From positions 279,363 to 343,362 of the forward strand of contig CP066697.1 of the NCBI GenBank assembly GCA_016432625.1: a stretch of DNA of 64,000 bases, read 5' to 3'. Below the pieces are notes generated by a model that saw only the letters and a list, made by a program, of their open reading frames with translations, had not been told where the DNA came from and did no database searches. Within the stretch, counting starts at the first letter, position 1. Each line of letters begins with the position of its first letter. Origin of the DNA: Candidatus Berkelbacteria bacterium (GTDB lineage Bacteria > Patescibacteriota > UBA1384 > 2-12-FULL-50-11). The translations under genes and the position numbers were made by a program. This document shows positions 9,933 to 59,312 of the stretch, one piece after another.

Positions 9933-10121
9933 GAACTGCCATAAAAGTCTCCTTAAGGCCGAGCTATAATTGGCGGGTCATGGTTGACGACGCGAAAAAA
10001 GAAGATCCAGTCGAAGAAACTATTCACCGAGGTTGTGGGCTGCCGGTGTTATTTTTGTCGATGTTTCTATTAGGTTGGCTGATTATCACTCTTACAACCT
10101 AATTTTTTGGGGTAAGCGAAA

Positions 10122-10141
10122 GCCCTGTTACATGAACAGGG
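10122..10141. terminator. perfect 10+10 bp palindrome between convergent genes
   Basis: gccctgttca|tgaacagggc, preceded by a T-run on the + strand. It could equally be a protein-binding site. Confidence 0.4.
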
Positions 10142-10189
10142 CTTCGGGTGACCCACTCGGGGTCAAGTTGGCCTTGCGGCCGCCTCGAC

Positions 10190-12091: not shown

Positions 12092-12240
12092 GTCATACCT
12101 CCATTGGTGCTGCGACGATGGACCTGGAAACGATTTCCAGATCCGGTTACTGACGGGCAGTAACCGTAGTGACGAAATTCTACTCTACACTGAGCAAAAA
12201 TCAAGGCTTTTGCAAGTCATTTTGAGCTGCTGATATGGAA

Positions 12241-12264
12241 ACGCCTCCCGGTTAGGGGAGGCGT
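12241..12264 (-). terminator. hairpin downstream of the 363-aa gene
   Basis: acgcctccc-ggtta-gggaggcgt stem-loop, 20 nt after the stop on the minus strand. The following T-run is weak. Confidence 0.35.
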
Positions 12265-12284
12265 CTTCGGGTTGCGTCCAAGTG

Positions 12285-15042: not shown

Positions 15043-15186
15043 GATCGGGGAAATGGTATCACAGATAAGACTTCAAGTCAGGGGACGAATATGGTTCAAA
15101 AAATTCGCGCCAGGCCGTTGGCGCTTCCTTGCGCTACCCCAATGGCGATCATCGCTACTATATATACCTGTAATAGTATATTCTTC

Positions 15187-15267
15187 GTAGGGGCAAGGGG
15201 CTTCATTGCGAAGTCAGCCCCTTACCCCTACAACCCCATCCCCAACACGCTCCCTACGGGGTTAAGG
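15187..15267 (+). repeat. R repeat copy A: GC-rich hairpin (gtaggggcaaggggc / ttcattgcgaagtca loop / gccccttacccctac) plus downstream box ccccaacacgctccc
   Basis: A near-identical copy in inverted orientation lies at 26504-26581. Related copies lie at 59343-59412, 60070-60220 and 60995-61042. Confidence 0.8.
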
Positions 15268-15331
15268 TGAAAACTTTCGGTTCGTTCCGGAAGGATCGCG
15301 GTAACAGCCCCTCAGTTTCGACTATTAACTA

Positions 15332-15385
15332 ATCGAAAAACAAGCAAATCTAACCCTCAAGCAGGTTATTTACTTGTTTTTCTCC
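15332..15385 (+). repeat. S stem-loop copy A (atcgaaaa-[stem]-aatctaaccctcaagcaggttatt-[stem']-ttttctcc)
   Basis: Direct copy at 26450-26503 with a different but again self-complementary stem. Third copy (reverse complement) at 59425-59475. Possible structured RNA or att-like site. Confidence 0.6.
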
Positions 15386-15543
15386 AGACGCCTGTTCGAA
15401 TGTGCCGGGGGTTGGTCGTTAGGATAGGGGGCGGGCTTCTAAACTCTGAGCCCCCTGTCCTAACATGTAGCCTCGCTTCGTGCGACGAAAAACAATAAAC
15501 AATTAGCATATGCTTCGTAACATAAAAAACATCCTAAACTCAT

Positions 15544-15571
15544 TGACAAATAGATGAGTTTAGAGTATCAT
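15544..15571 (+). promoter_or_regulatory. sigma70-like promoter reading into the GC-rich island
   Basis: TTGACA, a 16-nt spacer, then TATCAT, in an AT-rich patch at the island's left edge. Confidence 0.5.
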
Positions 15572-15584
15572 CTTGCACAACAAG

Positions 15585-15785
15585 TTAGGAAAGAATATTT
15601 TCTACTTGAGCACGTCCAACTAAATAAAGATCGAATGCGTCGGTAGCGCCTTCATCAGTGATTATTGATGACTTTGCGCGCGAATCGGCAAGGTCTTTTT
15701 TGTTGCCCGTGAGGCGGTAGGCCCGTCCTCGGCTTGAGCGATTATGCCTAACGAGGTAGTTGCAACAATAGCCACTCTTTAACAA
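15585..15785 (-). CDS. possible small basic protein (66 aa, TTG start) antisense to the promoter-proximal leader
   Basis: GAGGA lies 5 nt upstream of the TTG. There is no other support. Confidence 0.2.
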   Translation of the reverse strand: MLKSGYCCNYLVRHNRSSRGRAYRLTGNKKDLADSRAKSSIITDEGATDAFDLYLVGRAQVENILS

Positions 15786-16160
15786 CTTGTTTCCTCATTG
15801 CCCACGAGCCTAAGTTCGTGAGTAGCGAGGAGCGGTTGAAGCAATTCGACCGCTGGTAATCCAGTCATGATAAAAAACCACAAAGATCCGCGGGCCGAGA
15901 AGGCTCGCTCTCGTCGAAGTCCGGACTATTCACGCGACCCTGCTGGCTGTTTTGCCAGACATGCCCACAAGGCAGATCGCCGACTTCGCCATATGGGTGT
16001 GAAGGGAAAGCGTCCGAAAATCTACTGGGTGACGACGCTCGGTTGGCGAGCAAGCATTTAGCAGTACAGCGATACGGGCGAGACCAGATCTTCGAATTTG
16101 GTCTCGCCCTCTCATGACACGTTCGATGACTCGAACGTGGCTAGGAGGATAGTAAAAACC

Positions 16161-16511
16161 ATGATTGAATTCGGTCGACTACCGTTTAGCGGAGCCGAGG
16201 ATTTAAAGAGACATCGGGAACGCCTACTTCAGTACATGACTGGACAACACGCCGAGGCCTGCCTGGACAGACTACTTGATGCTGACGCAAAGATCGTCGC
16301 TATCAGCTACACACACGGTCGGGAGTTCGGTAAGGGCGAGGCAATTTACTTCGTCATGTCGGCAGACGAGTCGTCGGTGATGGTCATGAACACAGACGAG
16401 AACAAGCTGACGGGAACCCGACGCGGGAGCTTGCGGGGTGCAGGTGAGAATCTTCTCACGAGATACTTGCTCGACGACAACCTCAGTTCACTTCGCGTGG
16501 CTGCACAGTGA
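16161..16511 (+). CDS. island hypothetical protein (117 aa, cytoplasmic)
   Basis: The ATG is 7 nt after AGGAGGA. Two strong hairpins lie in the leader (16076-16108, 16113-16134). Confidence 0.5.
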   Translation: MIEFGRLPFSGAEDLKRHRERLLQYMTGQHAEACLDRLLDADAKIVAISYTHGREFGKGEAIYFVMSADESSVMVMNTDENKLTGTRRGSLRGAGENLLTRYLLDDNLSSLRVAAQ

Positions 16512-16599
16512 ATACGACACGGTGAGGCGGCAACTTCGGTTGCTCGCCTCACCCTCAATTAAGTTCACAACCACATGTTGCGAACTTTGAGAGAACAAA

Positions 16600-16854
16600 A
16601 TGAAGACTTTACTCGGCCTTTTCTTCGTCACCGTTTGCTGTTTCTTTCTCGGTTCTGGCGGCTTTGTGGCCGTCGAACTCGTCAAGATGATCCAAGCAAA
16701 CCAGATTACATCAACGCAAAGTGCGATCATAACGCTCGTGGTCGTTACCTCACTCGCGTTCGCGGTCGGCTCGTACCGGGCGAGCAAGTACGCGTTCAAA
16801 GGTCAGTTCCGACGGTTCTGGAAGCTGATCAACGGCGGCTGGCTTCCGGTCTGA
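16600..16854 (+). CDS. island small membrane protein (84 aa, 2 TM)
   Basis: Hydrophobic ORF, co-directional and tightly packed with its neighbours. Confidence 0.45.
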   Translation: MKTLLGLFFVTVCCFFLGSGGFVAVELVKMIQANQITSTQSAIITLVVVTSLAFAVGSYRASKYAFKGQFRRFWKLINGGWLPV

Positions 16855-16962
16855 CAACACTTCGAAAACAAGGGCGAAACGGAGCTTCAGCTCCGTATCG
16901 CCCGACCCGCAAAGCTCGTAATAGCGTATGAGTTGTGCGGGTTCTTGGAGGGCCCTCAGTCA

Positions 16963-17301
16963 ATGAAGAAACTCGTCACTCGAGCCTTTACGCTCGTTGA
17001 GATTATGATCATAGTTGTGATCGCAATCGTCCTCTTGCTCGCGATTGCGCTTCCCACCTTTCGCCACGCCAGCGAGACCAGCCGTAAGACCAGATGCATC
17101 GGTGGGCTCGGGCTGATCAGCGCGGCCAAAGAGCAGTGGGTGAAGGACCACAAGAATGGCGGTGGTACGGTTGTGCTTCTGGCTGACCTGTCGCCGCTAT
17201 ACATCAGGGATTTCCCTTCATGTCCCTCGGGTGGCGAGATCACGATCGGCAAGATTGGGGAGGCCCCGACCTGCTCGATTCCTGGTCATGCCTTGCCGTA
17301 A
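16963..17301 (+). CDS. prepilin-type N-terminal domain protein (type IV pilin/pseudopilin-like)
   Basis: MKKLVTRAFTLVEIMIIVVIAIVLL matches the class III signal and hydrophobic segment of type IV pilins (A in place of the usual G before FTLxE). Confidence 0.55.
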   Translation: MKKLVTRAFTLVEIMIIVVIAIVLLLAIALPTFRHASETSRKTRCIGGLGLISAAKEQWVKDHKNGGGTVVLLADLSPLYIRDFPSCPSGGEITIGKIGEAPTCSIPGHALP

Positions 17302-17452
17302 CCAACCCACCCAGTTCGCTCCGGAAGGCGAGACGTAGCTTTGGCTCCGTCTCGCCTCTTCCTTTCAGCCCACACTTTGTTAATTTGAACCTTTCAGTGG
17401 GCTGAAAGGAGGAAACTCCCCGTGATCCCGCGGTTAAGGGTGGAGGAACAAA

Positions 17453-17818
17453 ATGCTAACTTTGCGTAATCAGAACAATGCTCGTACCCTTACCGAATTG
17501 CTAGGATCCCTCACTGGATCGAAGGCGCAGGCGGTGTGCGAGAAGATTCGTCATATGAACGGCATCGTTGAAGCGATCAACGACGCGCCGCGTGGTAATG
17601 CGGGTGTCGAAATCGTTTACTTCGCCGAGCCAGTTCACAACGCACCTGGTGGTGGGCTGTCCCACTATGCCGTCTACTCGGTTTCCACCAACGATATCTG
17701 TGTCTCGCACTGCTATCGAGGCTTGTACAGCTTCTCGTTACAGCGCGAGGAACTCCTGCAAAGGGTCCTCCTCGAAGACGACCGAGAGGCATGGGAAGCC
17801 CTGGCTGGCAAGTGCTAG
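17453..17818 (+). CDS. island hypothetical protein (121 aa)
   Basis: GGTGGAGGA RBS 6 nt upstream of the ATG. Confidence 0.5.
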   Translation: MLTLRNQNNARTLTELLGSLTGSKAQAVCEKIRHMNGIVEAINDAPRGNAGVEIVYFAEPVHNAPGGGLSHYAVYSVSTNDICVSHCYRGLYSFSLQREELLQRVLLEDDREAWEALAGKC

Positions 17819-17937
17819 CTCGTTATCAACTTTGTCGCGAGTCCGACCCTTCGGGGTTCGGGCTCGCGGCTCCGACCTTTACTTCGTGATATTCCCATCC
17901 GTCTTTGACTTCCCAGTCGAGACGGGTGGTGAACAGC

Positions 17938-18195
17938 ATGAAAGTCGTTATATTAGTAATCGTCGCTTGCTTTGTGCTTGGCTGCCAAACTGTGCCGAAA
18001 GAAGATGTTGCCAAAGCTAAAGCTGACTTTTTGCAGCGAACAAGAGGTGTAGTCAACGAAGAGTCCGTTTCTTGTCACGCCTGGGACAAGCTGAACCCCT
18101 ACGTGAGATGTAGTGGTGTAACTGCCCAAGGCAAGGTGATAAGTGCGGTATACCAATGGAATCAAGAGTGGTGCGTGACATTCTACTCCGACTAA
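17938..18195 (+). CDS. island lipoprotein (85 aa)
   Basis: Signal peptide with lipobox (VLGC). Four further Cys. Confidence 0.5.
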   Translation: MKVVILVIVACFVLGCQTVPKEDVAKAKADFLQRTRGVVNEESVSCHAWDKLNPYVRCSGVTAQGKVISAVYQWNQEWCVTFYSD

Positions 18196-18310
18196 ATGGG
18201 GTGGATAAGTCATGAGGCTACCCGATACATCAACCTTTGGCGTCCCGAGGGGACGCTCACTCGTAAGCGACAAGAAAACGTCGCCGACAACCGTTCCTAC
18301 CGGAGGTGGG

Positions 18311-18574
18311 ATGAAGCAAGTACTGTCTGCCGTATGGTCGTGGCTCCTAGCCTTGGGCGCTTGGTGCTTCGAAAACCCTCGCCGTGGTCTAATCACGATC
18401 GCTGCGATTCTGATCCTCGTCTACCCGCCGATTCTCGGTAAGGTAGTTGGTCGGATATTTGAGGCGCTCGCTCCGTTCATTGGCTTATTGCTGATGTTCG
18501 GGATGATCTACCTCATTATCAAGCCACTCCTGCCGAAGCGGCCCAAACCCCAGCAGCGGAGGTCGGACCGATGA
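18311..18574 (+). CDS. island small membrane protein (87 aa, 2 TM)
   Basis: GGAGGTGGG RBS directly upstream of the ATG at 18311. Confidence 0.5.
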   Translation: MKQVLSAVWSWLLALGAWCFENPRRGLITIAAILILVYPPILGKVVGRIFEALAPFIGLLLMFGMIYLIIKPLLPKRPKPQQRRSDR

Positions 18575-18690
18575 CCGCCTGCTGCGACTCTCGGGCGAAA
18601 CGGATCTCGTATCCGTCTTCGCCCTTCAATGAAGCTGCTGAACGCGTGACGTTCGACAGTTTCTAGAAATCTCACGGAGGAAACACACAC

Positions 18691-19044
18691 TTGGGACAAT
18701 CACCTACCATAGGACAGAGTCTGGAATTTCCGGACTTCTTCTACTTCTTGCGGTTCGGTCAAGAAAGCTCGCATTTTGCCGTCACGACCCACCTGGGCGA
18801 GTCGGCGATGTTGTGTTTTCGCTCGATCCGCGACATGGACGTTTACGCTAAGCCCTTCGAGGACACTCCGGGCATGTCGCGTTACGATTCCGACGCTCAG
18901 TCGATTGACTCGGCGCGGGATTTTCTTCGGGAACACTTCCCGAGCTTCCGTGCACTTGTCCTATTCGAGCCGGGCTATGTGCCCGGGCGAGATGAGGCGC
19001 GGCTGTCGGTGCATATCCCGCCGCCGCAACCCGTGATCGGGTGA
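18691..19044 (+). CDS. island hypothetical protein (117 aa, TTG start)
   Basis: GGAGGA lies 10 nt upstream of the TTG. Confidence 0.4.
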   Translation: MGQSPTIGQSLEFPDFFYFLRFGQESSHFAVTTHLGESAMLCFRSIRDMDVYAKPFEDTPGMSRYDSDAQSIDSARDFLREHFPSFRALVLFEPGYVPGRDEARLSVHIPPPQPVIG

Positions 19045-19132
19045 CCACTTACGCCTAACTTGGCGAGGTGGTCGCCCACCTTTCCGTCACCAGGAATTCG
19101 CTATGGCGATATTCGTGGTGGGGGATAAGCGT

Positions 19133-19285
19133 ATGAAACAGTATTCTTCTGAGTCCGATCAGCGCCGCCAGGAACGTTATGAGTTTTGGCGACTGCTTGG
19201 ACTTGGGGCTTTGTGCCTCGTCATCACTACCGCCGTTGTGGTTATCGCAACCCAATGGTGGAACAACCCGATCACCGTCAGGTGA
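19133..19285 (+). CDS. island small C-tail-anchored membrane protein (50 aa)
   Basis: GGGGGA RBS. Single C-terminal hydrophobic helix. Confidence 0.35.
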   Translation: MKQYSSESDQRRQERYEFWRLLGLGALCLVITTAVVVIATQWWNNPITVR

Positions 19286-19301
19286 AGGAGCGCAATGCGC
19301 A

Positions 19302-19610
19302 ATGGAAGAGCTTTTGGCTAGTTTTGACTTTCCGGAAGAGTTCTACATCGTCAGGCTTCTAGATTCCGAGGGCTACGGCCGTACCAATTACTGGGGACTA
19401 CCAGCCATTCTTTGTTTTCAGTTGAAAGATGATGCAGAGAACTTCGCCCGAAGGATGAACCGGGGCAACGAGATCTTGGTGGTCTCGCTCGATTTTGCCA
19501 GGGATCTGGCACTGTCAAGTCACGTGTACCGCTACCTCGTTCTCTACCAGCCTGAGACGCCGGAAGAAGAGTATCCGGCGATCTATGTTCCCGTTTCCAA
19601 AACAGGGTGA
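19302..19610 (+). CDS. island hypothetical protein (102 aa)
   Basis: GAAGGAG RBS upstream. Acidic, soluble. Confidence 0.45.
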   Translation: MEELLASFDFPEEFYIVRLLDSEGYGRTNYWGLPAILCFQLKDDAENFARRMNRGNEILVVSLDFARDLALSSHVYRYLVLYQPETPEEEYPAIYVPVSKTG

Positions 19611-19734
19611 CCAATGGCAAACCAGCCAAACGTCACCCACCTTTCCTCCAGCATGAAGCAATTCGTGCTTGGGGATGAGGGAAACCTCGAGACCTGTAAG
19701 TCCTGACCGCAAGGCAGGCTGGGTAAGGAAAGAA

Positions 19735-20151
19735 ATGGCAGACGAATGGGATGACATCCGCGGCGACATTCGCCAAGGACACGGTATCTTCTTTCGGTAC
19801 TTCTGGCTGTGGCTGATCATCTTGATCGGCTTGAGCTGGGGCGGGACCCTCGCCTACAAGGCTTGGATTCGTCCGACCGAAATCAACTTGGAGACGAAGG
19901 CGATTCGCCAGTCGATCCAGTATCAGGACACGGGCATCACCGCGATGCTCGAGAACGTCAAGGGTTACAAACGGCTCGAAACGGATATCCTGAAGTACGA
20001 AAGCGACCCGGCCAACGCCAAGCTCGTCGAGGGCATGCGCTCACAGCAGCGCTCGCTCTTGGACGACATCGAGACCACTGCCGATCGTATCGGCCGCGAC
20101 CGCGTGCCGGATTCGGTGCGCAGCTTCCTGGCAGCTCACGAGGGAGGGTAA
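19735..20151 (+). CDS. island N-terminally anchored membrane protein (138 aa)
   Basis: AAGGAAAG RBS. One TM helix, then a soluble domain. Confidence 0.5.
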   Translation: MADEWDDIRGDIRQGHGIFFRYFWLWLIILIGLSWGGTLAYKAWIRPTEINLETKAIRQSIQYQDTGITAMLENVKGYKRLETDILKYESDPANAKLVEGMRSQQRSLLDDIETTADRIGRDRVPDSVRSFLAAHEGG

Positions 20152-20158
20152 CGAGACA

Positions 20159-20746
20159 ATGAAAAACCTTTGCACGATCCTTTTGGTCACGGGCATTTTC
20201 TTCGTCTCGGGCTGTGGCTCGGATAACAAGGCAACCGCTGACACCCGTGAGCAGGTGGCTGTGAATAGGCAGCAGGAGATCTACGTGAAGAACCAGCCGA
20301 TCCCGGTCTTCGATTGGAGCCGGACGCGTGATCTTCTGATCCAATTCTACGTTGCCCAAAACGGGGCAGCGGCGACCTGGAGCTACATAACGCCCCAAAT
20401 GGGCGCGACTGTGCTGTTCGAAACACCGAGCCAGGGCTACCCGATCCCGATGGATACTCAGCTCACCAACCCGCTCCAAGCGGTTTGGGAAAGCAATAGC
20501 TATGGGTTGGGTGGACTTACACTCGCACAAGCGGAGCCTAACGGGGTCTTCACCTCGCCGAATACCGACGCGACAATCGTCATGGCGGTAAACGGCGACG
20601 GCACGCTCTCGCCGATCTACACCGAGCTCAAGGTGACCACGTTCCCATTCCCTGTCCGCTGGGATAAGGAGAAGGGGCAGTGGGTTCGGATCGAGGGCAA
20701 GGAGCCTTCTATCAAACTCATCCCCAAAGCGGGGAAGGGTGGATAG
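20159..20746 (+). CDS. island lipoprotein (195 aa)
   Basis: Signal peptide with lipobox (VSGC). GAGGGAGGG RBS. Confidence 0.55.
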   Translation: MKNLCTILLVTGIFFVSGCGSDNKATADTREQVAVNRQQEIYVKNQPIPVFDWSRTRDLLIQFYVAQNGAAATWSYITPQMGATVLFETPSQGYPIPMDTQLTNPLQAVWESNSYGLGGLTLAQAEPNGVFTSPNTDATIVMAVNGDGTLSPIYTELKVTTFPFPVRWDKEKGQWVRIEGKEPSIKLIPKAGKGG

Positions 20747-20846
20747 CGGTTCTTGCCTCTCACCCCTTCGGGTCAGTCCGGCGCAAGCCGGGTCTGGCCC
20801 ACCTTTCCCCGTTCACAATCAATTGTGGGCGGAGAGGAGGTTTGAT

Positions 20847-21122
20847 GTGTACTTCTTACTGTTCGCCGGGCTTTTCGTTGCCTTCTTCTCAGGCTTAGCA
20901 CTGCTGGTCACCCTTATCGTGTACAACTGGGGCATGTTTGGTGCGCGCAAGCGGTTTGGCCGGGAAGAGTTTTGGTCGACACTCGCCAGCGGAAACGATG
21001 ATTTCGACGATGTACGCGAAAATGCGATATGCATACCCGCAATCGCCGTTATCGCTGTCCTAGACCTCATACCCTGGCTCACGAGCAAGCTATTTCGCCG
21101 TCCCAACCAAAAGACGGCGTGA
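20847..21122 (+). CDS. island 2-TM small protein, paralog 1 (GTG start)
   Basis: GGAGG lies 6 nt upstream of the GTG. Two hydrophobic helices. Confidence 0.45.
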   Translation: MYFLLFAGLFVAFFSGLALLVTLIVYNWGMFGARKRFGREEFWSTLASGNDDFDDVRENAICIPAIAVIAVLDLIPWLTSKLFRRPNQKTA

Positions 21123-21228
21123 GCTTCTCATTCGGCTGAAGCGTGTGCATACGCAAACGTTTCAGCCCCCAACTGGATTCTTGACCAGCAGGTCGAGGGT
21201 TCTGAGGGAAACCTTAAGGAGAGAAGAA

Positions 21229-21525
21229 ATGGAAACCCTAAGCAACCTGCTAGGAGTTTTGTTGTTTTGGACTGTCATATCCTTCGGCTTTGCGTCCTTC
21301 GCCCGAGCATCCATGCCGGAGCGTGGGGACAACATGTTCGAGTGGTTTCGACGTATGTGCTTCGGACTTGAGCCAAATGACGGACCGATTTGGCTGGTAG
21401 TTGTCGCTCTGACGCTGCCAACCACTATACTGATCGGGATTTGGGAGTGGGTAGTTTATCCACCTGTTTCCCGAGCAAGTCGCAAGTTTCTTGAACGCAT
21501 CCAAGCCACAGGCAATGCGTCGTGA
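21229..21525 (+). CDS. island 2-TM small protein, paralog 2
   Basis: AAGGAGAG RBS. Preceded by a hairpin plus a conserved 37-bp ttgacc-containing motif. Confidence 0.5.
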   Translation: METLSNLLGVLLFWTVISFGFASFARASMPERGDNMFEWFRRMCFGLEPNDGPIWLVVVALTLPTTILIGIWEWVVYPPVSRASRKFLERIQATGNAS

Positions 21526-21598
21526 CCCGGCTGACGGTACTCGTACCGTCAGCCATCGCTCCTTGACCGTCAGGTAACTGATGATCGGGGATACGAAC

Positions 21599-21913
21599 AT
21601 GTATAACAACATCGACTCACTAACTTGGTGGTGGACTGTAATACTGCCTAGTTGGGTAGTGGCGAATCTGGTGGTGTGGTTCCTCTTCTGTTTGCTCCAC
21701 GCCACAGCTGGTGGACCGGCTGACGGACTCATCCTGTTCTTGAAAAAGCCCTTTGAGAGCCTAGACGAGAACACAGACCGACTTCCTGAACGACTACTCA
21801 TCGTAGGATTCGTTCTATTTTTCCTACCGCTCTTCGTTGCCGTTCAGCTTTGTGTTCTGATTGCACGGCTTGCACGCTTTCTTTGGATTGTCGCTACCAT
21901 AAAACGTGCATAA
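21599..21913 (+). CDS. island 2-TM small protein, paralog 3
   Basis: Same cassette layout as paralog 2. Preceded by a perfect 12-bp-stem hairpin and a ttgacc motif. Confidence 0.45.
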   Translation: MYNNIDSLTWWWTVILPSWVVANLVVWFLFCLLHATAGGPADGLILFLKKPFESLDENTDRLPERLLIVGFVLFFLPLFVAVQLCVLIARLARFLWIVATIKRA

Positions 21914-21999
21914 ACGCTCGCTTTGACTGACGGACACTCTCCGTCAGTCCCCGACTGAATTCTTGACCAGATGGTCGAGGGTTCTGAGGGAGGAACTAA

Positions 22000-22197
22000 T
22001 TGAAAGTGTTTGAATCGTTCATTTCTTGGCTTCTTCAAGCTTGGCTGACCGCCGCGTTTGAGCTCCACACCTTCAAGTGCGAGCAGTGTTTGAACGTTGA
22101 AATGGGGTTAACCGCTCCCGACAGCTTATGCCAGCGAGGCAAAGAGCTCAAAGCCGCGATCGGCGCGGAAGAAACCAACTGTGGGCAACCAAACTAG
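22000..22197 (+). CDS. island small Cys-rich protein (65 aa, CxxC...C...C; TTG start)
   Basis: GGGAGG upstream. Possible zinc-ribbon-like fold. Confidence 0.35.
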   Translation: MKVFESFISWLLQAWLTAAFELHTFKCEQCLNVEMGLTAPDSLCQRGKELKAAIGAEETNCGQPN

Positions 22198-22365
22198 GAT
22201 TGCCCACCCAACTGAGTTTTCAAATCTTTGAAGACTTTGAGGGTTTGTCTGGCCGGATCCGCTCCGGACGCAACGGTATCAGATGAAGTAATTCATTTTG
22301 AAATTTGCCGTTGCACTACCGCCGGAGCGGTTTTGGCTGGACAACGGTTCAGCAGGAGTGAACGT

Positions 22366-22662
22366 ATGTTACAAGTCTGGGTGAATGCTCAACTTGTCCG
22401 CCGAGGCGCTGTAGAAAGCGATTCGGAGGGCATCGCCTACTGCCGTTTCCGCTCTAAAGACGGAGACGTGGTGGCCACTTTCAACGAACGCAAGATTCAG
22501 GAAGAGGGCGGCAACGTCCTCATACCAGGAGCTTGCGACGACCTGATCGGCGAAAATGGCTTCATCGCCGTTAAGCCTGACTACGAGCCGTTTCTTTGGG
22601 GGGTTCACGGCCGCCCGAGAGAAACCGTATTGGTTCCGACAGCTGAGGTGATCTCAAGGTGA
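22366..22662 (+). CDS. island hypothetical protein (98 aa)
   Basis: AGGAGTG RBS 6 nt before the ATG at 22366. Confidence 0.45.
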   Translation: MLQVWVNAQLVRRGAVESDSEGIAYCRFRSKDGDVVATFNERKIQEEGGNVLIPGACDDLIGENGFIAVKPDYEPFLWGVHGRPRETVLVPTAEVISR

Positions 22663-23321
22663 AAAGCCTGACGATCGCCGTATCGCTTATCGTTGCTGCA
22701 ACGGGTTTGATCTTGGCGCTTATGCCGCTGATCTACCCAGGGCAACTTTACCTGATCGAAATCGGCGGCAGCATGGCCGTTGTCGCCGCAGCGTTGCTAA
22801 TTTGGGCAACACTTGTTCTGCGGGAGACTTGCTACTACGAGCTGAGGCTTGTTCGCGAGTCTGGCGGTGACATAGAGGGTTGCCTGGATGTCATGAGCCA
22901 CGACGGGCGAACATTCGTCAGTATCGGGGACATCTACCACCTGATCGATCAGTTCAACGACTCAGCGAACGGCAGCACTCACCTTAAGGTTGAGCGCCGG
23001 CAGATCTCAGCAGACAAGGCTAGTTCGCTTTGCGAACTGTCCTTTGAGGAAGTCTGGGGGATTGAGCCGCTCGAAGCCGAGCTGCTCCTCTTTGCCACGA
23101 CGCAAAGCCAAGGCGCTACGCTTCGTTACGAGGAGATGCCTGAGTTCAAGCTGGCTCTGGTTCACTACCGCTCGGAAATCCTGGCGATGGAAACCACGGA
23201 GTTCGACGGACTTCTGGCTGTCGTCAAGGGTTTGGCCGACAACCACAAGTTCATACGGCTACAAACTAGCCTGCGAACAACGGCGGCCAGTTATGAGGTG
23301 TTCGATGGAATACGCTCATAA
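22659..23321 (+). CDS. island membrane protein (220 aa, 2 N-terminal TM; GTG start)
   Basis: Overlaps the preceding stop (GTGA). Confidence 0.5.
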   Translation: MKSLTIAVSLIVAATGLILALMPLIYPGQLYLIEIGGSMAVVAAALLIWATLVLRETCYYELRLVRESGGDIEGCLDVMSHDGRTFVSIGDIYHLIDQFNDSANGSTHLKVERRQISADKASSLCELSFEEVWGIEPLEAELLLFATTQSQGATLRYEEMPEFKLALVHYRSEILAMETTEFDGLLAVVKGLADNHKFIRLQTSLRTTAASYEVFDGIRS

Positions 23322-23418
23322 TCACGACCACAACCTGGAGGCGCACGAATGAGAGTAATCTCACCCGTGCGCCCACCAACTGCCCGACAAGCTACCGCTT
23401 GAAAGGCTGAGGTTAAAC

Positions 23419-23874
23419 GTGAATAGACCCACATTAGTGCCACTCGTACTCGGGTTTATTTTCGGGTACCTACTTTTCAACACTGGTTTCTTCGGAGGTC
23501 CGTGTGTATTGCCACTGCTCTTGTTGATCGCACTCTACTCGCGAGGTATAGCCAGGATGCGTGAAGCTCATCGCTGGGCTGACATGCAGGCTATTCCCGC
23601 GGGCGACTGGTTGGTGCAGCTAAACATCTTCACCAACATTGGTTGCCAGAAGCATGAGCATCAAGTCCGTGGTGAGTTCAGGAGGCTCATACCCTTCATC
23701 GGCATTCGTTCGCCCGAAGAGGTAGAGCGGATTCGTCAGATGGTGGCGGATGCTTCGGAGGGTGGCTACGACTGGGTCACACTCTACAACCCTCCGGGAT
23801 TACCAAAACAGTTCGAACATCAGGCAACCTCGACGATTACTATCAGGTATTCGCCGTTGGAGGCCCCATCATAA
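23419..23874 (+). CDS. island membrane protein (151 aa)
   Basis: Two N-terminal hydrophobic helices. Confidence 0.45.
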   Translation: MNRPTLVPLVLGFIFGYLLFNTGFFGGPCVLPLLLLIALYSRGIARMREAHRWADMQAIPAGDWLVQLNIFTNIGCQKHEHQVRGEFRRLIPFIGIRSPEEVERIRQMVADASEGGYDWVTLYNPPGLPKQFEHQATSTITIRYSPLEAPS

Positions 23875-23946
23875 GGCGCACGGAACATCTTGTGCGCCCA
23901 CTTCCCCACCGCCTGCGTACAATGCGGACGGTGAGGAGAGTGAAGA

Positions 23947-24180
23947 ATGTATCGCAACATAAGGGGATCATCAGAATTCAAAGTTGGGTGCGTAGTACTG
24001 TTCGCCATGATCGTGCTCGCGATAATGATGATTCCCATAAAGAAACAACGTGACTGGCTAATGCTGTCCTGGATGGTAGCCGCTTGGGCGACCCTCTTTT
24101 TTATTCCCTGGCTCAGATATATTCGCCGGGAAAGAGAGCTTGAAGCACAGAAAAGGTTGAAAGAAAATCAAGCGCCTTGA
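23947..24180 (+). CDS. island small membrane protein (77 aa)
   Basis: GAGGAGAG RBS. Two hydrophobic helices. Confidence 0.45.
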   Translation: MYRNIRGSSEFKVGCVVLFAMIVLAIMMIPIKKQRDWLMLSWMVAAWATLFFIPWLRYIRRERELEAQKRLKENQAP

Positions 24181-24263
24181 CCTTTCGCAAAAGCGCCGAG
24201 TGAAACATCTCGGCGCACCCCCTCTCGTTTCGAACTTCGGTTCAAACGTGGAGGTAGGTGAAT

Positions 24264-24887
24264 ATGAACCGGCTCACAGTAATACTTCATGCCGGTTTAG
24301 TTCGGCTACTGAAGATCGTCGTTTGGCCAGTACTTCGGTACTTTGGCCCCGTCACGTGTGTTAAAGGGGCTACGCTTCCAAAAAAGGGAGGAGTCCTGAT
24401 TGTTGCCAACCACGAAAGCGTCGCCGATCCAGTCGTCGTGCAGTACACCTGCGCGCGACCGATCTGCTTCATGGCAAAAGCGGAGCTTTTCAAGCGCCCA
24501 GTGCTAAGTTTCGTGATTCGGCTGTTTCGCACGTTCATCGTCGAACCCAACACCTCAGATATCAGAGCAATTAGGCAAGCCATCGACTTACTGAAAGCTG
24601 GTGAGGTGGTGTTGGTCTTTCCGGAAGGTAAGATTAACGGCGAAAGTGGGGCTTTGCTTGGATTTCGCAAGGGCGTCGGGCTCATCGCCCGAAAGTCTGG
24701 GGCGACGGTGATTCCATGTGCCATTAGGCACTCCCGCCGCGTCTGGGCAAAGCCATCTTGGATACCAACTGGCCGTCACCAGATGACGGTCATCTGGGGC
24801 AAGGCGTATCGGTTCCGAGTCAGTGATGACAACGAAACAATTGCCACCGAACTTCGACAAGAAGTTTCTGCCCTCCTTGGGCGATAG
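24264..24887 (+). CDS. lysophospholipid acyltransferase (PlsC/LPLAT family)
   Basis: NHESVADP (HxxxxD acyltransferase motif) and FPEG motif. GGAGGTAGG RBS. Confidence 0.65.
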   Translation: MNRLTVILHAGLVRLLKIVVWPVLRYFGPVTCVKGATLPKKGGVLIVANHESVADPVVVQYTCARPICFMAKAELFKRPVLSFVIRLFRTFIVEPNTSDIRAIRQAIDLLKAGEVVLVFPEGKINGESGALLGFRKGVGLIARKSGATVIPCAIRHSRRVWAKPSWIPTGRHQMTVIWGKAYRFRVSDDNETIATELRQEVSALLGR

Positions 24888-24957
24888 GCCTCGAGCCTCT
24901 CGCCCCGCTTCCTCTCGTCTTTGCGACCACTACGGTCGTAGGCGGGGAGGAGAGTGA

Positions 24958-25203
24958 ATGTTTATCGGTGATCGAATCGACAAGATCTGCCAACTTGTCG
25001 CCCTTCTAGGGGTTCTTTTCTGCGTCGGCTCTATGTGGGTCTTCGCTCGTCTGGATAAACCGGTTACTTGGGCTTATTACTCAATGTTAGGCCTTGTTGT
25101 AACATTGGTTGCCCTCACGGTTATTCTCTTTCGGGGAAAACGCTATCAGAAGATGTGGCAGAAAGCCCGATGCATGTTCCTGAAGGAGTGGCCCGATGAC
25201 TAA
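24958..25203 (+). CDS. island small 2-TM membrane protein (81 aa)
   Basis: GGGGAGGAGAG RBS. Confidence 0.5.
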   Translation: MFIGDRIDKICQLVALLGVLFCVGSMWVFARLDKPVTWAYYSMLGLVVTLVALTVILFRGKRYQKMWQKARCMFLKEWPDD

Positions 25204-25292
25204 CATGTCCGTTATCCGGCGCAGCGACTTGCACCCGCTGCGCCCGCTTCCTGACCGCCCGTGAAGAACACGGACGGCGAGGTAGGTGATTA

Positions 25293-25454
25293 ATGTCGAC
25301 AAGTGGAAAATGCCTCATGCTGGGATCGATTGTCCTTGGTTCGATTGCCGGCACCCAGCTACACAGTTTCTGGGTAGGTTTGGGCGTCTGGTTCGGGCTG
25401 GCGATATACGGCTCGGCATTCTTGGTCGCTCAGAACAAAGGGGAAACAAGTTGA
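25293..25454 (+). CDS. island small hydrophobic protein (53 aa). Not in the ORF track; preferred over the listed 25286..25504 frame
   Basis: GAGGTAGGTGA lies 5 nt upstream of the ATG. Product MSTSGKCLMLGSIVLGSIAGTQLHSFWVGLGVWFGLAIYGSAFLVAQNKGETS is membrane-like, as are its neighbours. Confidence 0.35.
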   Translation: MSTSGKCLMLGSIVLGSIAGTQLHSFWVGLGVWFGLAIYGSAFLVAQNKGETS

Positions 25455-25548
25455 GAATCCGCGAAGCGCCGGGCTTAAAAACCCCGGCGCTTTTTGCGTT
25501 TTAAAAAGGTGTAAAATACTTTCATCTGAAACGAGCAGGAGGTGAAAG

Positions 25549-25833
25549 ATGAGCTCGGGCAGTGTTCCTCAAAGCGGCCAGTCCAAAAGTAACCGGCCGA
25601 ATGACTATCAAAGTCTTGGTGGGGCAGGGAACTTCTTCCTTGAGCCCGACGAGGTTTATGGAACTGCACCGGACTATGCCAGTTATCTCAAGGTCATTGG
25701 TCTGATCTTGGGCGAATCGGGCATCGTTTACGGTCTCTACCGGTTCGGCAGTCCGTTGGCGTTAGTGGTTCTCGTCGCCATAATCTTTTTGGCGATCTTA
25801 GCCTACGGCGTTAATAGGGTGCTGTTTGAATAG
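25549..25833 (+). CDS. island C-terminally anchored membrane protein (94 aa)
   Basis: GCAGGAGGTGA RBS. Confidence 0.5.
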   Translation: MSSGSVPQSGQSKSNRPNDYQSLGGAGNFFLEPDEVYGTAPDYASYLKVIGLILGESGIVYGLYRFGSPLALVVLVAIIFLAILAYGVNRVLFE

Positions 25834-25888
25834 CGGCTGGACGATTTCCAAAGATGTCGGGTCAAACTCGGCAAAGGAGGTGGGTCTA

Positions 25889-26140
25889 ATGGTGATCCAA
25901 GAGAAACCTCGAAACGACGAGTGGCGTGAGCGTTACGCTCACCCGCATCAGACGCGCTTGAGCCGTGTGGCTGAGGAAATACGGTTAATACCCGTGGTTC
26001 TCGGTCTGGCGATTGGTGGACTGGTGCTTGTTGGTCTGTCGGTTGGCTTCTCCGCGCCAATATATGCCGGAATTATTCTGTTCTCATTCGGAATACTGGC
26101 GGAATGGCTGCTGGGCAGACACTATGACTACACGTCTTGA
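25889..26140 (+). CDS. island membrane protein (83 aa)
   Basis: AAAGGAGGTGGG RBS before the ATG at 25889. Confidence 0.5.
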   Translation: MVIQEKPRNDEWRERYAHPHQTRLSRVAEEIRLIPVVLGLAIGGLVLVGLSVGFSAPIYAGIILFSFGILAEWLLGRHYDYTS

Positions 26141-26449
26141 AACTAGGACGTGGCTCGGGGCGGCTTCGGCCGCCCCAATTCTATATAAAAATGTTGCGCT
26201 GACTTGACGCATAGGCATACACTATTACTGAGTTGATCTCGGCAACCGTCGAGGTGGCTTGCATCGGAGGGAAAACATGAAGAAACTCTATCGTTTCCGG
26301 TCGCACGCGACGCACAAGCAGCACAGACGTCTACTGCATATGCTCGCCGCGAGCTTCATCGGCCGGGTGGCCTGGGGGTAGGCCGACGCAATCCTTCGAC
26401 ATCAAGTACGGCCCGGGTTTCTAACCCGGGCCGCTTGCTTAATATAAAT

Positions 26450-26503
26450 ATCGAAAATGGTGCGAATCTAACCCAAAGCAGGTTATTCGCCCATTTTCAT
26501 CCG
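26450..26503 (+). repeat. S stem-loop copy B (direct repeat of 15332-15385 with compensatory stem)
   Basis: atcgaaaa-tggtgcg-aatctaacccaaagcaggttatt-cgcccat-tttcatcc. Confidence 0.6.
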
Positions 26504-26581
26504 TAACCCCGTAGGGAGCGTGTCGGGGATGGGGTTGTAGGGGTAAGGGGGTGACTTCGCAATGAACCCCTTTACCCCTAC
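26504..26581 (-). repeat. R repeat copy B (inverted copy of 15187-15267), abutting the uvrA stop codon
   Basis: Its reverse complement reads gtaggggtaaaggggttcattgcgaagtcaccccccttacccctacaaccccatccccgacacgctccctacgggg. Confidence 0.8.
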
Positions 26582-33517: not shown

Positions 33518-33582
33518 GGGACCGAGCCCCGAGCCACATTAGAGTGGTTCGGGGCTTTTGCTATCCTAATAGATATAAAAAG

Positions 33583-33612: not shown

Positions 33613-33631
33613 GCGGGTTGTTCCAGACGCG

Positions 33632-59291: not shown

Positions 59292-59312
59292 AATATTTTG
59301 AATCAAAAGCAG

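What the first reader, a model, noticed from the sequence alone, without database searches (positions are those of the whole stretch)
15187..26581. 11.4 kb GC-rich gene island between uvrC and uvrA, bounded by inverted R hairpin repeats and direct S stem-loops
From about 15.2 to 26.6 kb the GC content rises to roughly 58%, against about 47% for flanking uvrC, uvrA and the rpo/ribosomal genes. The block holds about 25 short ORFs, all on the + strand, tightly packed or overlapping. Most have GGAGG-type RBSs, and several use GTG/TTG starts. Their products are mainly small 1-2-TM membrane proteins, plus two lipoproteins with lipoboxes, a type IV pilin-like prepilin, a PlsC-type acyltransferase and a few small soluble or Cys-rich proteins. 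No integrase, transposase, terminase or capsid gene is recognisable. The edges are marked by an ~80 bp hairpin repeat (15187-15267 and its inverted copy 26504-26581) and a ~55 bp stem-loop in direct orientation (15332-15385; 26450-26503). A consensus sigma70 promoter (15544-15571) fires into the block. The block therefore looks like an acquired cell-envelope or host-interaction island, or a non-phage mobile island. The composition and GTG/TTG usage would fit acquisition from a higher-GC donor, but that is speculation.
Basis: partly seen in the sequence, partly recalled or inferred. Interest (0 to 1): 0.85.

Follow-up and report, generated by a model that had tools for sequence, protein, structure and literature searches.

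The report
Hypervariable envelope-gene operon in a Berkelbacterium
Between two DNA-repair genes of an ultra-small candidate-phylum bacterium lies a fast-changing 10.6 kb operon of about 25 small membrane and surface proteins. It is driven by one conserved promoter and a previously undescribed structured leader RNA. It is an old, clade-wide variable locus, not a recently inserted mobile element bounded by repeats.

Summary
The sequence features exist, but the numbers and the interpretation need correcting.

**What holds up**
- The window comes from a Candidatus Berkelbacteria (CPR) genome.
- Between uvrC and uvrA lies one co-oriented unit: a near-consensus promoter, a 232-nt leader, about 25 small ORFs and a strong terminator.
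- Most products have predicted membrane-spanning segments. There are also two lipoproteins, a pilin-like protein and a PlsC-type acyltransferase. No mobility or phage hallmark gene was found.
- All 11 ORFs with orthologues have dN/dS 0.06-0.32, so they are real genes.

**What needs correcting**
- The GC excess is real but modest: 53.9% against 49.3%, not 58% against 47%.
- Four more distant relatives have uvrA next to uvrC, with gaps of 0.2-2.9 kb.
- Five closer relatives carry a variant island at the same site. They share the promoter, the leader and a GC excess, but their gene content differs strongly. The island is therefore old and in flux, not a recent import from a high-GC donor.
- The R and S repeats are parts of one ~140-nt three-hairpin repeat. 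This repeat also occurs in the fusA-tuf spacer. It is absent from the uvrA end in the closest relative and is inverted at the uvrC end there. It does not mark the island ends.

**New observations**
- The leader RNA has covariation support and no Rfam match.
- The uvrA-proximal part of the island is an array of structured spacers alternating with small genes.

Function is inferred to be cell-envelope or surface variation.

The parts
15183..15285 (-). Partial copy (hairpins H2 and H1, no S hairpin) of the three-hairpin repeat unit.
   Evidence: Covariance model R1 scores 75.6 bits, E 1e-18. The hairpin folds at -37 kcal/mol, z -3.9.
15328..15477 (+). Complete three-hairpin unit (S, H2-like, H1-like). 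Together with 15183-15285 it forms a ~290-nt composite. This composite is inverted relative to its flanks in relative L091.
   Evidence: R1 scores 132.6 bits. blastn aligns 15187-15446 plus/plus with L091 6641-6902, while both flanks align plus/minus.
15543..15571 (+). Sigma-70-type promoter (TTGACA, 17 nt, TATCAT) of the island operon.
   Evidence: 11 of 12 positions. TTGAC and the -10 T/A positions are invariant in six genomes.
15570..15801 (+). Conserved structured 5' leader RNA (seven helices). It contains an internal terminator-like hairpin at 15670-15695 followed by U6, and a conserved tail CUUUAACAACUUGUUUCYUC.
   Evidence: The alignment of six genomes gives 45 pairs, 94.8% of cells paired. 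13 pairs show double changes against 4.0 +/- 1.6 in shuffles (0 of 500) and 2-3 in slid controls. Model R2 scores 218-237 bits in six genomes and 28 bits in L003 at the same position. No Rfam match.
15867..16061 (+). 64-aa strongly basic protein (net +13). It is a paralogue of the small ORF at 26259-26381 (motif RRLRHM).
   Evidence: Orthologues in L091 (62%) and L102 (58%). dN/dS 0.29.
16161..16511 (+). Soluble ~116-aa protein, family A (paralogue of 17453-17818).
   Evidence: Alignment A8. Orthologue in L102 at 62%. Absent in L091.
16600..16854 (+). 84-aa protein with two TM segments.
   Evidence: Orthologue in L091 at 62%, dN/dS 0.15.
16963..17301 (+). Type IV pilin-like protein (N-terminus KLVTRAFTLVEIMIIVV...).
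   Evidence: N-terminal matches to pilin/pseudopilin models are all below cut-off: NCBIfam E 1e-4, PHROG E 1e-6, Pfam N_methyl E 0.04. The 44%-identical homologue in L103 carries a weak N_methyl hit.
17453..17818 (+). Soluble 121-aa protein, family A. One of the best-conserved island genes.
17938..18195 (+). Small lipoprotein (lipobox VLGC).
   Evidence: Sequence. Signal/TM segment. No orthologue in L091.
18311..18574 (+). 87-aa protein with two TM segments. Conserved family.
   Evidence: Orthologues in L091 (65-77%) and L103 (36%). dN/dS 0.25.
18691..19044 (+). Soluble acidic 117-aa protein, family B.
   Evidence: Paralogue of 19302-19610, E 3e-7. Orthologues in L091 (65%) and L103 (29%). dN/dS 0.06. 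No PDB or Pfam match.
19103..19285 (+). 60-aa single-TM protein.
   Evidence: Gene called in L001.
19302..19610 (+). Soluble acidic protein, family B paralogue.
19735..20746 (+). Two-gene module: a TM protein (19735-20151) plus a 195-aa lipoprotein (20159-20746, lipobox VSGC).
   Evidence: The lipoprotein has 28 homologues at 40-60% identity, with Cys19 invariant. The pair recurs in other CPR contigs in unrelated contexts (L082, L084). The lipoprotein also occurs in L083 and L087. It matches phrog_24725 at E 1.5e-9 and is 37-47% identical to proteins of lytic Vibrio phages. Absent in L091.
20847..21913 (+). Three small proteins with two TM segments each (20847-21122, 21229-21525, 21581-21913).
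   Evidence: No family match.
22000..22662 (+). A Cys-rich 65-aa ORF (22000-22197) and a soluble Cys-rich protein (22228/22366-22662). A 48-nt hairpin-plus-SD module at 21944-21991 is repeated at 21162-21209.
   Evidence: repeat D1, 90%. Orthologue in L090 at 64-71%, dN/dS 0.18. A visually similar 58-aa ORF lies in L091 (resemblance judged by eye, not scored).
22659..23874 (+). A 220-aa protein with two N-terminal TM segments (22659-23321) and a 2-TM protein (23419/23557-23874).
   Evidence: The 220-aa protein has a single homologue cluster among 1.84 billion representatives. Orthologues in L090 at 35-46% and L103 at 46%.
23866..25551 (+). Cassette-like array. Structured ~85-nt spacers lie at 23866-23949, 24181-24266, 24871-24962 and 25204-25295, with a weak one at 25454-25551. 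They alternate with genes 23947-24180 (2-TM), 24264-24887 (PlsC acyltransferase), 24958-25203 (2-TM) and 25293-25454 (TM).
   Evidence: Spacer alignment A10 and model R3 score 39-84 bits in the window, L090 and L103, and only inside islands. The same spacer (96% over 53 nt) precedes PlsC here and a 54-aa TM ORF in L090. PlsC matches PF01553 at E 3e-25 and has the NHxxxxD and PEG motifs.
25549..26140 (+). The last two operon genes (94 aa and 104 aa, TM).
   Evidence: 25826-26140 is 85% identical to its L090 orthologue. dN/dS 0.24, pS only 0.31.
26157..26176 (+). Intrinsic terminator of the operon (8 G-C pairs, tail AATTCTATAT).
26259..26436 (+). Ancestral resident of the uvrA-uvrC spacer: a 34-40-aa basic ORF (ATG at 26278) followed by the hairpin 26411-26436.
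   Evidence: Homologues lie at the same place in L004 (45%), L090 (83%) and L103 (61%); a similar ORF in L002 was read by eye from the sequence. dN/dS 0.12.
26446..26585 (+). Complete three-hairpin unit (S, H2, H1) overlapping the uvrA stop codon. It is absent at this position in L090.
   Evidence: R1 scores 134.7 bits. L090 sequence 3440-3525 has no such unit.

Best explanation
The block is a clade-conserved but hypervariable chromosomal operon, that is, a flexible genomic island, in a Candidatus Berkelbacteria (CPR) genome.

**Shown**
- One strong, conserved sigma-70 promoter lies at 15543-15571.
- It is followed by a conserved, structured ~230-nt leader RNA that contains an internal terminator-like hairpin with a U tract.
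- About 25 small genes follow on the same strand, ending at the terminator 26157-26176.
- The products are mostly small membrane-anchored or exported proteins. There are also two lipoproteins, a pilin-like protein, a lysophospholipid-type acyltransferase and two small soluble families.
- The small basic ORF next to uvrA is the ancestral resident of the uvrA-uvrC spacer.
- Gene content changes by gain, loss and replacement of single genes or small modules. Part of this happens in an array where conserved structured spacers alternate with small genes.
- The 'R' and 'S' hairpins belong to a separate, dispersed three-hairpin repeat family. They sit in the flanking spacers but do not delimit the island.

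**Inferred**
- The island grew between the leader and the ancestral small ORF in the common ancestor of a Berkelbacteria subclade.
- The repeated spacers give homologous recombination a substrate for changing gene content.
- The operon remodels or varies the cell envelope and surface of an episymbiotic cell, for host contact or escape from phages and antagonists.
- The leader gates or sustains transcription of the long operon, by attenuation or by a riboswitch- or antitermination-like mechanism.
For: **Host and site**
- UvrC is 51-58% identical to that of Berkelbacteria MAGs. Sources name the proteins as Candidatus Berkelbacteria.
- uvrA and uvrC are adjacent in L004, L002 and L005, and 2.9 kb apart in L003.

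**Variant islands at the same site**
- L090 and L091 overlap by 24 nt and so form one genome with a ~10.6 kb interval. It holds 11 orthologues at 35-88% identity. It lacks about 12 window genes, including PlsC, the pilin-like gene and both lipoproteins. It has NfeD and SPFH/flotillin genes instead.
- L103 has a complete 7.2 kb interval with 16 small ORFs.
- L104 has at least 10 kb, L092 at least 4.4 kb, and L102 is partial.

**Coding and composition**
- dN/dS is 0.06-0.32 for 11 ORFs.
- A GC excess recurs in relatives, e.g. L104 island 49.7% against 43.5-45%.

**Promoter, leader and terminator**
-.

**Envelope bias**
-.

**Spacer array**
-.

**Exchange**
- Four-fold-site divergence is 0.478 in island genes against 0.624 in uvrA, uvrC and p364, Fisher p 4e-6.
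- The lipoprotein gene, in two loci paired with its TM-protein neighbour, occurs elsewhere, including next to transposases and in phages.

**Repeats are not island ends**
-.
Against: - No expression data are available. A single transcript and an envelope role are inferred only from sequence.
- Apart from PlsC, no protein has a significant match to a family of known function. Two structure models are mediocre (pLDDT 68-70) and gave no significant fold match.
- The lower synonymous divergence could reflect constraint on GC3 rather than exchange.
- Loss of the island in the distant relatives, rather than gain in the subclade, is not excluded, because no phylogeny was built.
- The L092 island shares no BLAST-detectable protein with the window. 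'Same island' there rests on position, the leader and gene type.
Confidence: 0.6

Rival explanations
1. The block is a poly-immunity or antagonism-defence locus. It would be an array of diverse small immunity proteins (membrane and soluble) against toxins or bacteriocins of neighbours or hosts. Such arrays are co-oriented, vary between strains and lack mobility genes.
For: - The block is a co-oriented, hypervariable array of small ORFans with several paralogous soluble families.
- Evolution is fast, yet selection is purifying.
Against: - The fold matches are weak and the model has low confidence (pLDDT 68).
- No toxin gene or toxin domain was found in or beside the island.
- No PADLOC match.
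- A pilin-like protein, lipoproteins, PlsC and, in L091, flotillin/NfeD fit envelope building better than immunity.
Confidence: 0.15
2. The block is a degraded or non-canonical integrated mobile element (cryptic prophage, integrative plasmid or island). Its ends would be the inverted hairpin repeats.
For: - An 81-nt inverted repeat with 93% match brackets the block.
- GC3 is elevated.
- The lipoprotein family occurs in phages and near integrases and transposases elsewhere.
- The block is absent from distant relatives.
- The same repeat units flank another small insert between fusA and tuf.
Against: - No integrase, transposase, replication, packaging or capsid gene was found.
- No tRNA gene is present.
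- The repeat is missing at the uvrA end in L090 and throughout L103, although both have the island.
- An ancestral ORF and terminator lie inside the repeat-bounded span.
- The island occupies the same site in at least 5 diverged genomes with a conserved host-type promoter and leader.
- The repeat patterns are absent from viral contigs, and the lipoprotein from plasmids.
Confidence: 0.08
3. The block is an integrase-independent cassette platform. The conserved promoter and leader would act as an expression platform. Small gene cassettes, each carrying a structured spacer, would be captured and shuffled behind it by a dedicated recombination mechanism acting on the hairpins. This would be analogous to an integron array.
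For: - The promoter and leader are conserved while the cargo differs completely.
- Structured spacers alternate with small genes, and the same spacer precedes different genes in two genomes.
- Three-hairpin units with conserved loops and covarying stems flank this locus and the fusA-tuf insert.
Against: - No recombinase is encoded at or near the locus in any of the genomes examined.
- The spacer module is found in only ~1.7 kb of the island. Most intergenic gaps lack any shared site.
- Ordinary homologous recombination and tandem duplication explain the pattern.
- No attC-like R'/R'' core sites were seen.
Confidence: 0.12

Closest known systems
Flexible (replacement/additive) genomic islands of free-living bacteria (Lopez-Perez, Martin-Cuadrado & Rodriguez-Valera 2014, PMC4033161)
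   Same: Both occupy a fixed chromosomal position between conserved core genes and are present throughout a lineage with different genes in each genome. Both encode exposed or envelope structures, lack a dedicated mobility gene, have deviating composition, and show signs of exchange by homologous recombination.
   Different: The classical cases are glycosyltransferase/O-antigen, flagellar or pilus clusters compared between strains of one species. Here the cargo is about 25 tiny ORFan membrane proteins in one operon behind a conserved structured leader. The host is a CPR bacterium and the comparisons are at genus-like distances. The synonymous-substitution peaks at the boundaries described in that paper were not tested.
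Genomic islands reported in Patescibacteria/CPR genomes (PMC12455944)
   Same: That study reports hundreds of composition-detected islands and HGT regions in 125 aquifer Patescibacteria genomes, so islands in CPR genomes are expected.
   Different: Those were predicted with IslandViewer4, and the example shown carries a restriction-modification system. No conserved leader RNA, uvrA-uvrC site or small-membrane-protein operon appeared in the passages I searched.
Chromosomal integron cassette arrays and CALINs
   Same: Both have co-oriented small, mostly ORFan genes behind a common promoter, with variable content and structured sites between some genes.
   Different: No IntI, attI or attC-like site is present. 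The structured spacers cover only part of the array and lie upstream of genes, where they include the ribosome-binding site.
REP/BIME/REPIN elements and MITE- or PATE-like hairpin repeats
   Same: The R and S sequences form a dispersed ~140-nt unit of three hairpins in intergenic DNA. The outer hairpin begins with GTAG in several copies. Copies occur in either orientation, singly or as inverted pairs, and their number varies between genomes.
   Different: No RAYT or Y1 transposase is seen in the window. Hairpin loops are conserved while stems covary, which would also fit a small RNA. The genome-wide copy number is unknown.
Leader RNAs of long surface-structure operons (riboswitch or attenuator leaders; processive-antitermination RNAs such as EAR of the Bacillus eps operon)
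   Same: Both are conserved structured 5' RNAs ahead of a long envelope operon. This one has an internal hairpin with a U tract that could terminate or be bypassed.
   Different: There is no sequence or Rfam similarity to any described family. The ligand or factor, and even whether the RNA acts in cis, are unknown. The comparison comes from my own knowledge and was not tested.

Membership tests
Classical horizontally acquired genomic island (Hacker/Kaper criteria) | Present in some genomes and absent from related ones at the same site | tested here: met
   uvrA-uvrC gaps are 0.2-0.7 kb in L004, L002 and L005 and 2.9 kb in L003. They are 7-11.5 kb in the window, L090+L091 and L103, and at least 10 kb in L104.
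Classical horizontally acquired genomic island (Hacker/Kaper criteria) | Base composition deviating from the core genome | tested here: met
   GC is 53.9% against 49.3%, and GC3 62.7% against 51.9%, p 1.5e-7. The same excess is seen in every island-bearing relative, so it does not indicate recent import.
Classical horizontally acquired genomic island (Hacker/Kaper criteria) | Insertion next to a tRNA/tmRNA gene with flanking direct repeats generated by integration | tested here: not met
   No tRNA or tmRNA gene is present in the window. The flanking repeats are diverged members of a dispersed family. They are absent in L090 (uvrA end) and in L103.
Classical horizontally acquired genomic island (Hacker/Kaper criteria) | Mobility genes (integrase, transposase, conjugation) | tested here: not met
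   None was found in Pfam, PHROGs or NCBIfam scans of the ORFs.
Flexible genomic island (fixed site, variable content, exposed structures) | Same chromosomal location across a lineage, with different gene content | tested here: met
   Six genomes have islands between or next to uvrC and uvrA, behind the same promoter and leader. Shared proteins range from 11 (L090/L091) to none detectable (L092).
Flexible genomic island (fixed site, variable content, exposed structures) | Cargo encodes exposed or envelope structures | tested here: inconclusive
   19 of the 25 ORFs have predicted TM or signal segments. Lipoboxes, a pilin-like N-terminus and PlsC are present. No localisation or function data exist.
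Flexible genomic island (fixed site, variable content, exposed structures) | Exchange by homologous recombination through conserved flanks | tested here: inconclusive
   Four-fold-site divergence is lower in the island than in the flanks (0.478 against 0.624, p 4e-6) and is heterogeneous between genes, 0.25-0.72. GC3 constraint is an alternative explanation.
Prophage | Integrase, terminase, capsid or tail genes | tested here: not met
   PHROG matches were limited to a pilin-type N-terminus and one unknown-function family, phrog_24725.
Integron / CALIN | IntI integrase and attC sites separating cassettes | tested here: not met
   No tyrosine recombinase was found. No shared site lies between most ORFs. 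The spacer module (R3) lacks attC core sites by inspection and lies upstream of the start codons. No dedicated attC model was run.
Type IV pilin / pseudopilin | Class III signal peptide with N-methylation motif (G/A|FTLxE) followed by a hydrophobic helix | tested here: inconclusive
   The motif RA|FTLVE plus a helix is visible. Pfam N_methyl scores 13.9 bits (cut-off 21.2), and NCBIfam pilin models give E 1e-4 to 7e-3, all below cut-off. No prepilin peptidase or pilus ATPase is in the window.
PlsC/LPLAT acyltransferase (PF01553) | Domain match above the curated cut-off, with catalytic NHxxxxD and PEG motifs | tested here: met
   PF01553 scores 88.8 bits (cut-off 23). The motifs ANHESVAD and FPEGK are present in the translation. 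TIGR00530 scores 82.8 bits, below its 103 cut-off, so the substrate is not assigned.
Any Rfam RNA family (for the leader and for the hairpin units) | Match at the gathering score | tested here: not met
   No match at gathering score in the whole window. At E <= 10, 15150-15900 gives only chance miRNA/snoRNA hits.
REP/REPIN elements | Many dispersed copies per genome and an associated RAYT (Y1 transposase) gene | not testable with these tools
   Six or seven copies lie at two loci in 64 kb. The rest of the 769-kb genome could not be read, and no Y1 transposase is in the window.

The most novel reading that the evidence does not exclude
A conserved promoter plus a novel structured leader RNA may form a dedicated expression platform. 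Behind it, CPR bacteria would accumulate and shuffle small envelope-protein cassettes without an integrase, using structured spacer modules and three-hairpin repeats as recombination or processing sites. This would be a previously undescribed surface-variation system of episymbiotic ultra-small bacteria. The leader would act as a new riboswitch or processive-antitermination element.
Probability: 0.15. Interest if true: 0.8.

Novelty: new variant of a known kind. Interest (0 to 1): 0.5.

Why it matters
CPR/Patescibacteria are thought to live attached to host cells, yet most of their small membrane proteins have no known role. This locus concentrates such genes in one operon at a fixed site and changes them quickly, while keeping the promoter and a structured leader constant.

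That makes it a concrete, comparable target for asking how these cells vary their surface. It also yields three uncatalogued RNA/DNA motifs that can be searched for in other CPR genomes:
- the leader RNA;
- the three-hairpin repeat;
- the structured spacer that includes the ribosome-binding site.

Finally, it is a caution that repeats bracketing a GC-shifted block do not by themselves show mobility.

Tried and rejected
- **Prophage, ICE or plasmid.** Pfam, PHROGs, NCBIfam and PADLOC scans gave no hallmark gene. The ~11 kb contigs carrying the lipoprotein looked like possible free replicons; the one examined (L082) is chromosomal, with ftsK, recA and ppdK.
- **Repeat patterns in viral contigs.** None found.
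- **Metagenome scan with the leader core.** It returned only the L092 organism plus five chance 21-24-nt matches.
- **High-GC donor for PlsC.** The closest relatives are 37-38% identical, and the one examined is a housekeeping cmk-plsC gene of a non-CPR bacterium.
- **Structure-based function.**
  - Profile searches of families A and B against PDB and Pfam found nothing.
- **Leader as a small ORF.** Rejected, because indels between genomes break the reading frame.
- **Campbell-type duplication of S plus the small basic ORF.** Rejected. The order is mirrored (R-S...ORF against ORF...S-R), and the S copies differ by compensatory changes, not by recent duplication.
- **Internal terminators as evidence for antitermination.** The count does not exceed chance: 15 found against 13.6 +/- 3.7 expected.

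Full report
**Observation check**

The window is a Candidatus Berkelbacteria (CPR/Patescibacteria) chromosome segment.
- Its UvrC is 51-58% identical to UvrC of Berkelbacteria MAGs.
- Public records name the identical proteins 'Candidatus Berkelbacteria bacterium', on a 768,791-bp contig.
- uvrC (13411-15042), uvrA (26578-29484) and uvrB (30858-32843) all lie on the - strand.

The described repeats exist.
- An 81-nt inverted repeat (15187-15267 / 26501-26581) is 93% complementary.
- A ~54-nt direct stem-loop (15332-15385 / 26450-26503) is ~77% identical. Its stems differ by compensatory changes, and it folds far better than shuffles, z -4.1 to -5.6.

The promoter TTGACA-17-TATCAT at 15543-15571 is real, matching 11 of 12 positions.

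The GC shift is real but overstated.
- GC is 53.9% in 15187-26581 against 49.3% elsewhere.
- GC3 is 62.7% against 51.9%, Mann-Whitney p 1.5e-7.
- A second GC-rich block (10190-13376, 56.7%) lies beyond uvrC.

**Anatomy**

From the promoter the order is:
- a 232-nt non-coding leader (15570-15801);
- about 25 + strand ORFs, many with GGAGG-type ribosome-binding sites;
- a strong terminator (26157-26176);
- a 34-40-aa basic ORF with its own hairpin (26259-26436).

19 of the 25 products have predicted TM or signal segments, and two of these have lipoboxes. One product has a pilin-type N-terminus, but all matches are below curated cut-offs. One is a PlsC-type acyltransferase with intact motifs. Two soluble families are each present twice.

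Pfam, PHROGs, NCBIfam and PADLOC gave no integrase, transposase, phage structural gene or defence gene. No tRNA gene and no Rfam family was found.

**Comparison with relatives**

*Distant relatives (UvrC 51-58% identical).* uvrA is followed directly by uvrC.
- The gap is 520 bp in L004, ~670 bp in L002 and ~190 bp in L005.
- L004 and L002 hold only the small antisense basic ORF, plus one small TM ORF in L002.
- L003 has 2.9 kb with four small antisense ORFs.

*Closest relative.* Contigs L091 and L090 come from one sample and overlap by 24 identical bases. UvrA is 93% identical and UvrC 73%.
- Its interval is ~10.6 kb, with orthologues of 11 island ORFs at 35-88% identity.
- It lacks about a dozen window genes, including PlsC, the pilin-like gene and both lipoproteins.
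- It has a 196-aa TM protein, an NfeD/YqiJ-like protein and an SPFH/flotillin protein instead.

*Other relatives.*
- L103 (UvrC 67%) has a complete 7.2-kb interval with 16 small antisense ORFs. These include pilin-like, 18212-like, family-B, 23419-like and small basic homologues.
- L104 (66%) has at least 10 kb with 15 ORFs.
- L092 (71%) has at least 4.4 kb with 11 ORFs of the same kind but no BLAST-detectable homology.
- L102 (69%) has the first two genes.

In every case the island is GC-richer than its own flanks. For example, the L104 island is 49.7% against 43.5-45%. So the locus is a clade-wide feature with rapid turnover, not a recent import.

**Are the ORFs genes?**

For the 11 ORFs with orthologues, Nei-Gojobori dN/dS is 0.06-0.32. 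The value for uvrA is 0.018. The ORFs are therefore coding and under purifying but relaxed selection.

Synonymous divergence is unexpectedly lower in the island than in the flanking core genes.
- Pooled four-fold-site differences are 0.478 (95% CI 0.43-0.53) against 0.624 (0.59-0.66), Fisher p 4e-6.
- Individual island genes range from 0.25 to 0.72.
- This fits exchange of island segments between lineages after the core diverged. Constraint on GC3 is an alternative.

The lipoprotein gene (20159-20746) recurs in unrelated contexts in other CPR contigs; in L082 and L084 its TM-protein neighbour (19735-20151) accompanies it. One lipoprotein copy lies next to a Y1 transposase and another among integrases. 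The lipoprotein also has 37-47% identical homologues among small accessory genes of lytic Vibrio phages. The island is therefore a mosaic.

**The leader RNA**

The promoter and the following ~230 nt are conserved in all six island-bearing genomes, even where the cargo is entirely different. This stretch is far better conserved than synonymous sites of the neighbouring uvrC.

The six-sequence alignment supports seven helices (45 pairs).
- 94.8% of cells are paired.
- 13 pairs show changes on both sides, against 4.0 +/- 1.6 in shuffles (0 of 500) and 2-3 in slid controls.
- G-U pairs favour the + strand.

A covariance model finds the leader once per genome at the same position. It also finds a weak copy (28 bits) in L003, where mainly the 3' hairpin (loop CUAAYGAG) and the tail CUUUAACAAYUUGUUUCCUC are kept.

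Helix 4 (15670-15695) is followed by an invariant U tract, which makes it a possible attenuator. Nothing in Rfam matches. Indels between genomes rule out a coding explanation.

**The R and S repeats**

R and S are parts of one ~140-nt unit of three hairpins, in the order S, H2, H1. The hairpin loops are conserved and the stems covary. Model R1 finds these copies in the window:

| Position | Strand | Note |
|---|---|---|
| 15328-15467 | + | complete unit |
| 26446-26585 | + | complete unit |
| 15183-15285 | - | partial copy |
| 59340-59481 | - | in the fusA-tuf insert |
| 60014-60214 | + | interrupted; in the fusA-tuf insert |
| 60903-61046 | + | in the fusA-tuf insert |

The fusA-tuf insert is 1.9 kb long.

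At the uvrC side, the composite 15187-15477 is inverted relative to its flanks in L091. Other genomes differ:
- L092 has one unit.
- L102 has two units back to back.
- L103 and L104 have none.
- L090 has none at the uvrA end, where only the ancestral terminator hairpin separates the small ORF from uvrA.

The repeats are therefore a dynamic, dispersed REP/MITE-like family, or a small-RNA family, that settles in these spacers. They are not island ends.

**A cassette-like sub-array**

Between 23.87 and 25.55 kb, small genes alternate with a conserved ~85-nt spacer. The spacer consists of a GC hairpin, a C/U-rich tract, a variable hairpin and the ribosome-binding site GGAGAGUGA. The C/U tract is predicted to pair with the ribosome-binding region.

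Model R3 finds this spacer only inside islands: four to five times in the window, three times in L090 and twice in L103. The same spacer (96% over 53 nt) precedes PlsC in the window but a 54-aa TM ORF in L090. Repeated spacers give homologous recombination a simple way to add, delete or swap genes. That step is inference.

**Interpretation**

The best-supported reading is a flexible genomic island in the sense of PMC4033161. It has a fixed site, lineage-wide presence, variable envelope-related cargo and no mobility genes. It is organised as one operon under a conserved promoter and a structured leader. Islands as such are common in Patescibacteria (PMC12455944).

The function, envelope or surface variation in an episymbiont, is inferred from protein features only.

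Three rivals remain:
- a poly-immunity locus, supported only by weak fold hints;
- a degraded mobile element, which conflicts with the relatives;
- an integrase-free cassette platform, the most novel reading.

**Limits**

No expression data, full genome or phylogeny were available. The structure models are mediocre and most proteins remain ORFans.

Noticed in passing
window 59291-61199: fusA and tuf, normally adjacent, are separated by a 1.9-kb insert. It holds three copies or remnants of the same three-hairpin repeat, a 67-aa 2-TM ORF (59735-59938, - strand) and a 159-aa ORF with no family match (60372-60851). This is a second small accessory insert flanked by the repeat family.
   Followed up: partly
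window 59516-59690: A promoter-like TTGACT-17-TATTAT is followed by ~140 nt ending in a hairpin plus T run (cggctcccg...cgggagccgtttcat). This is a candidate small RNA gene with no Rfam match at gathering score.
   Followed up: no
window 10190-13376: A second GC-rich (56.7%) accessory block lies downstream of uvrC. It holds two large ORFan proteins (633 aa and 363 aa, - strand) with no significant Pfam or NCBIfam match. Homologues are present in L091 and L103 and partly in L104. The block is absent in L092 and L102, where uvrC abuts the PD-(D/E)XK nuclease gene.
   Followed up: partly
window 15187-15477 vs L091 6641-6902: The ~290-nt composite of hairpin repeats between uvrC and the island promoter is inverted relative to both flanks in the closest relative. 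This could be a past inversion or an invertible segment.
   Followed up: partly
window 15107-15124 (- strand): A terminator-like hairpin with a T run lies just upstream of the uvrC start on the uvrC strand and is conserved in L091. It may end a - strand transcript through the repeat units or attenuate uvrC.
   Followed up: no
window 13411-15042: UvrC is short (543 aa) and lacks the C-terminal helix-hairpin-helix domain present in the non-CPR homologues listed (PF12826/PF14520 appear only in proteins of about 600 aa or more).
   Followed up: no
window 21162-21209 and 21944-21991: A 48-nt direct repeat (90% identical) forms a hairpin just upstream of two different island genes' ribosome-binding sites. 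It is a second type of repeated intergenic module inside the island.
   Followed up: no
window 33001-34500: Another local GC peak (55.6% in 33001-34000) lies around ORFs 32963-33517 and 33632-34132, which have no Pfam match.
   Followed up: no
L083 (3.4-Mb contig ERZ25039595 contig_26991) 10001-10555: A 51%-identical homologue of the island lipoprotein sits in a large, non-CPR-sized genome. It lies amid three tyrosine recombinases, an rve and a mutator-type transposase and toxin-antitoxin genes. The lipoprotein family therefore travels on mobile DNA outside CPR.
   Followed up: no
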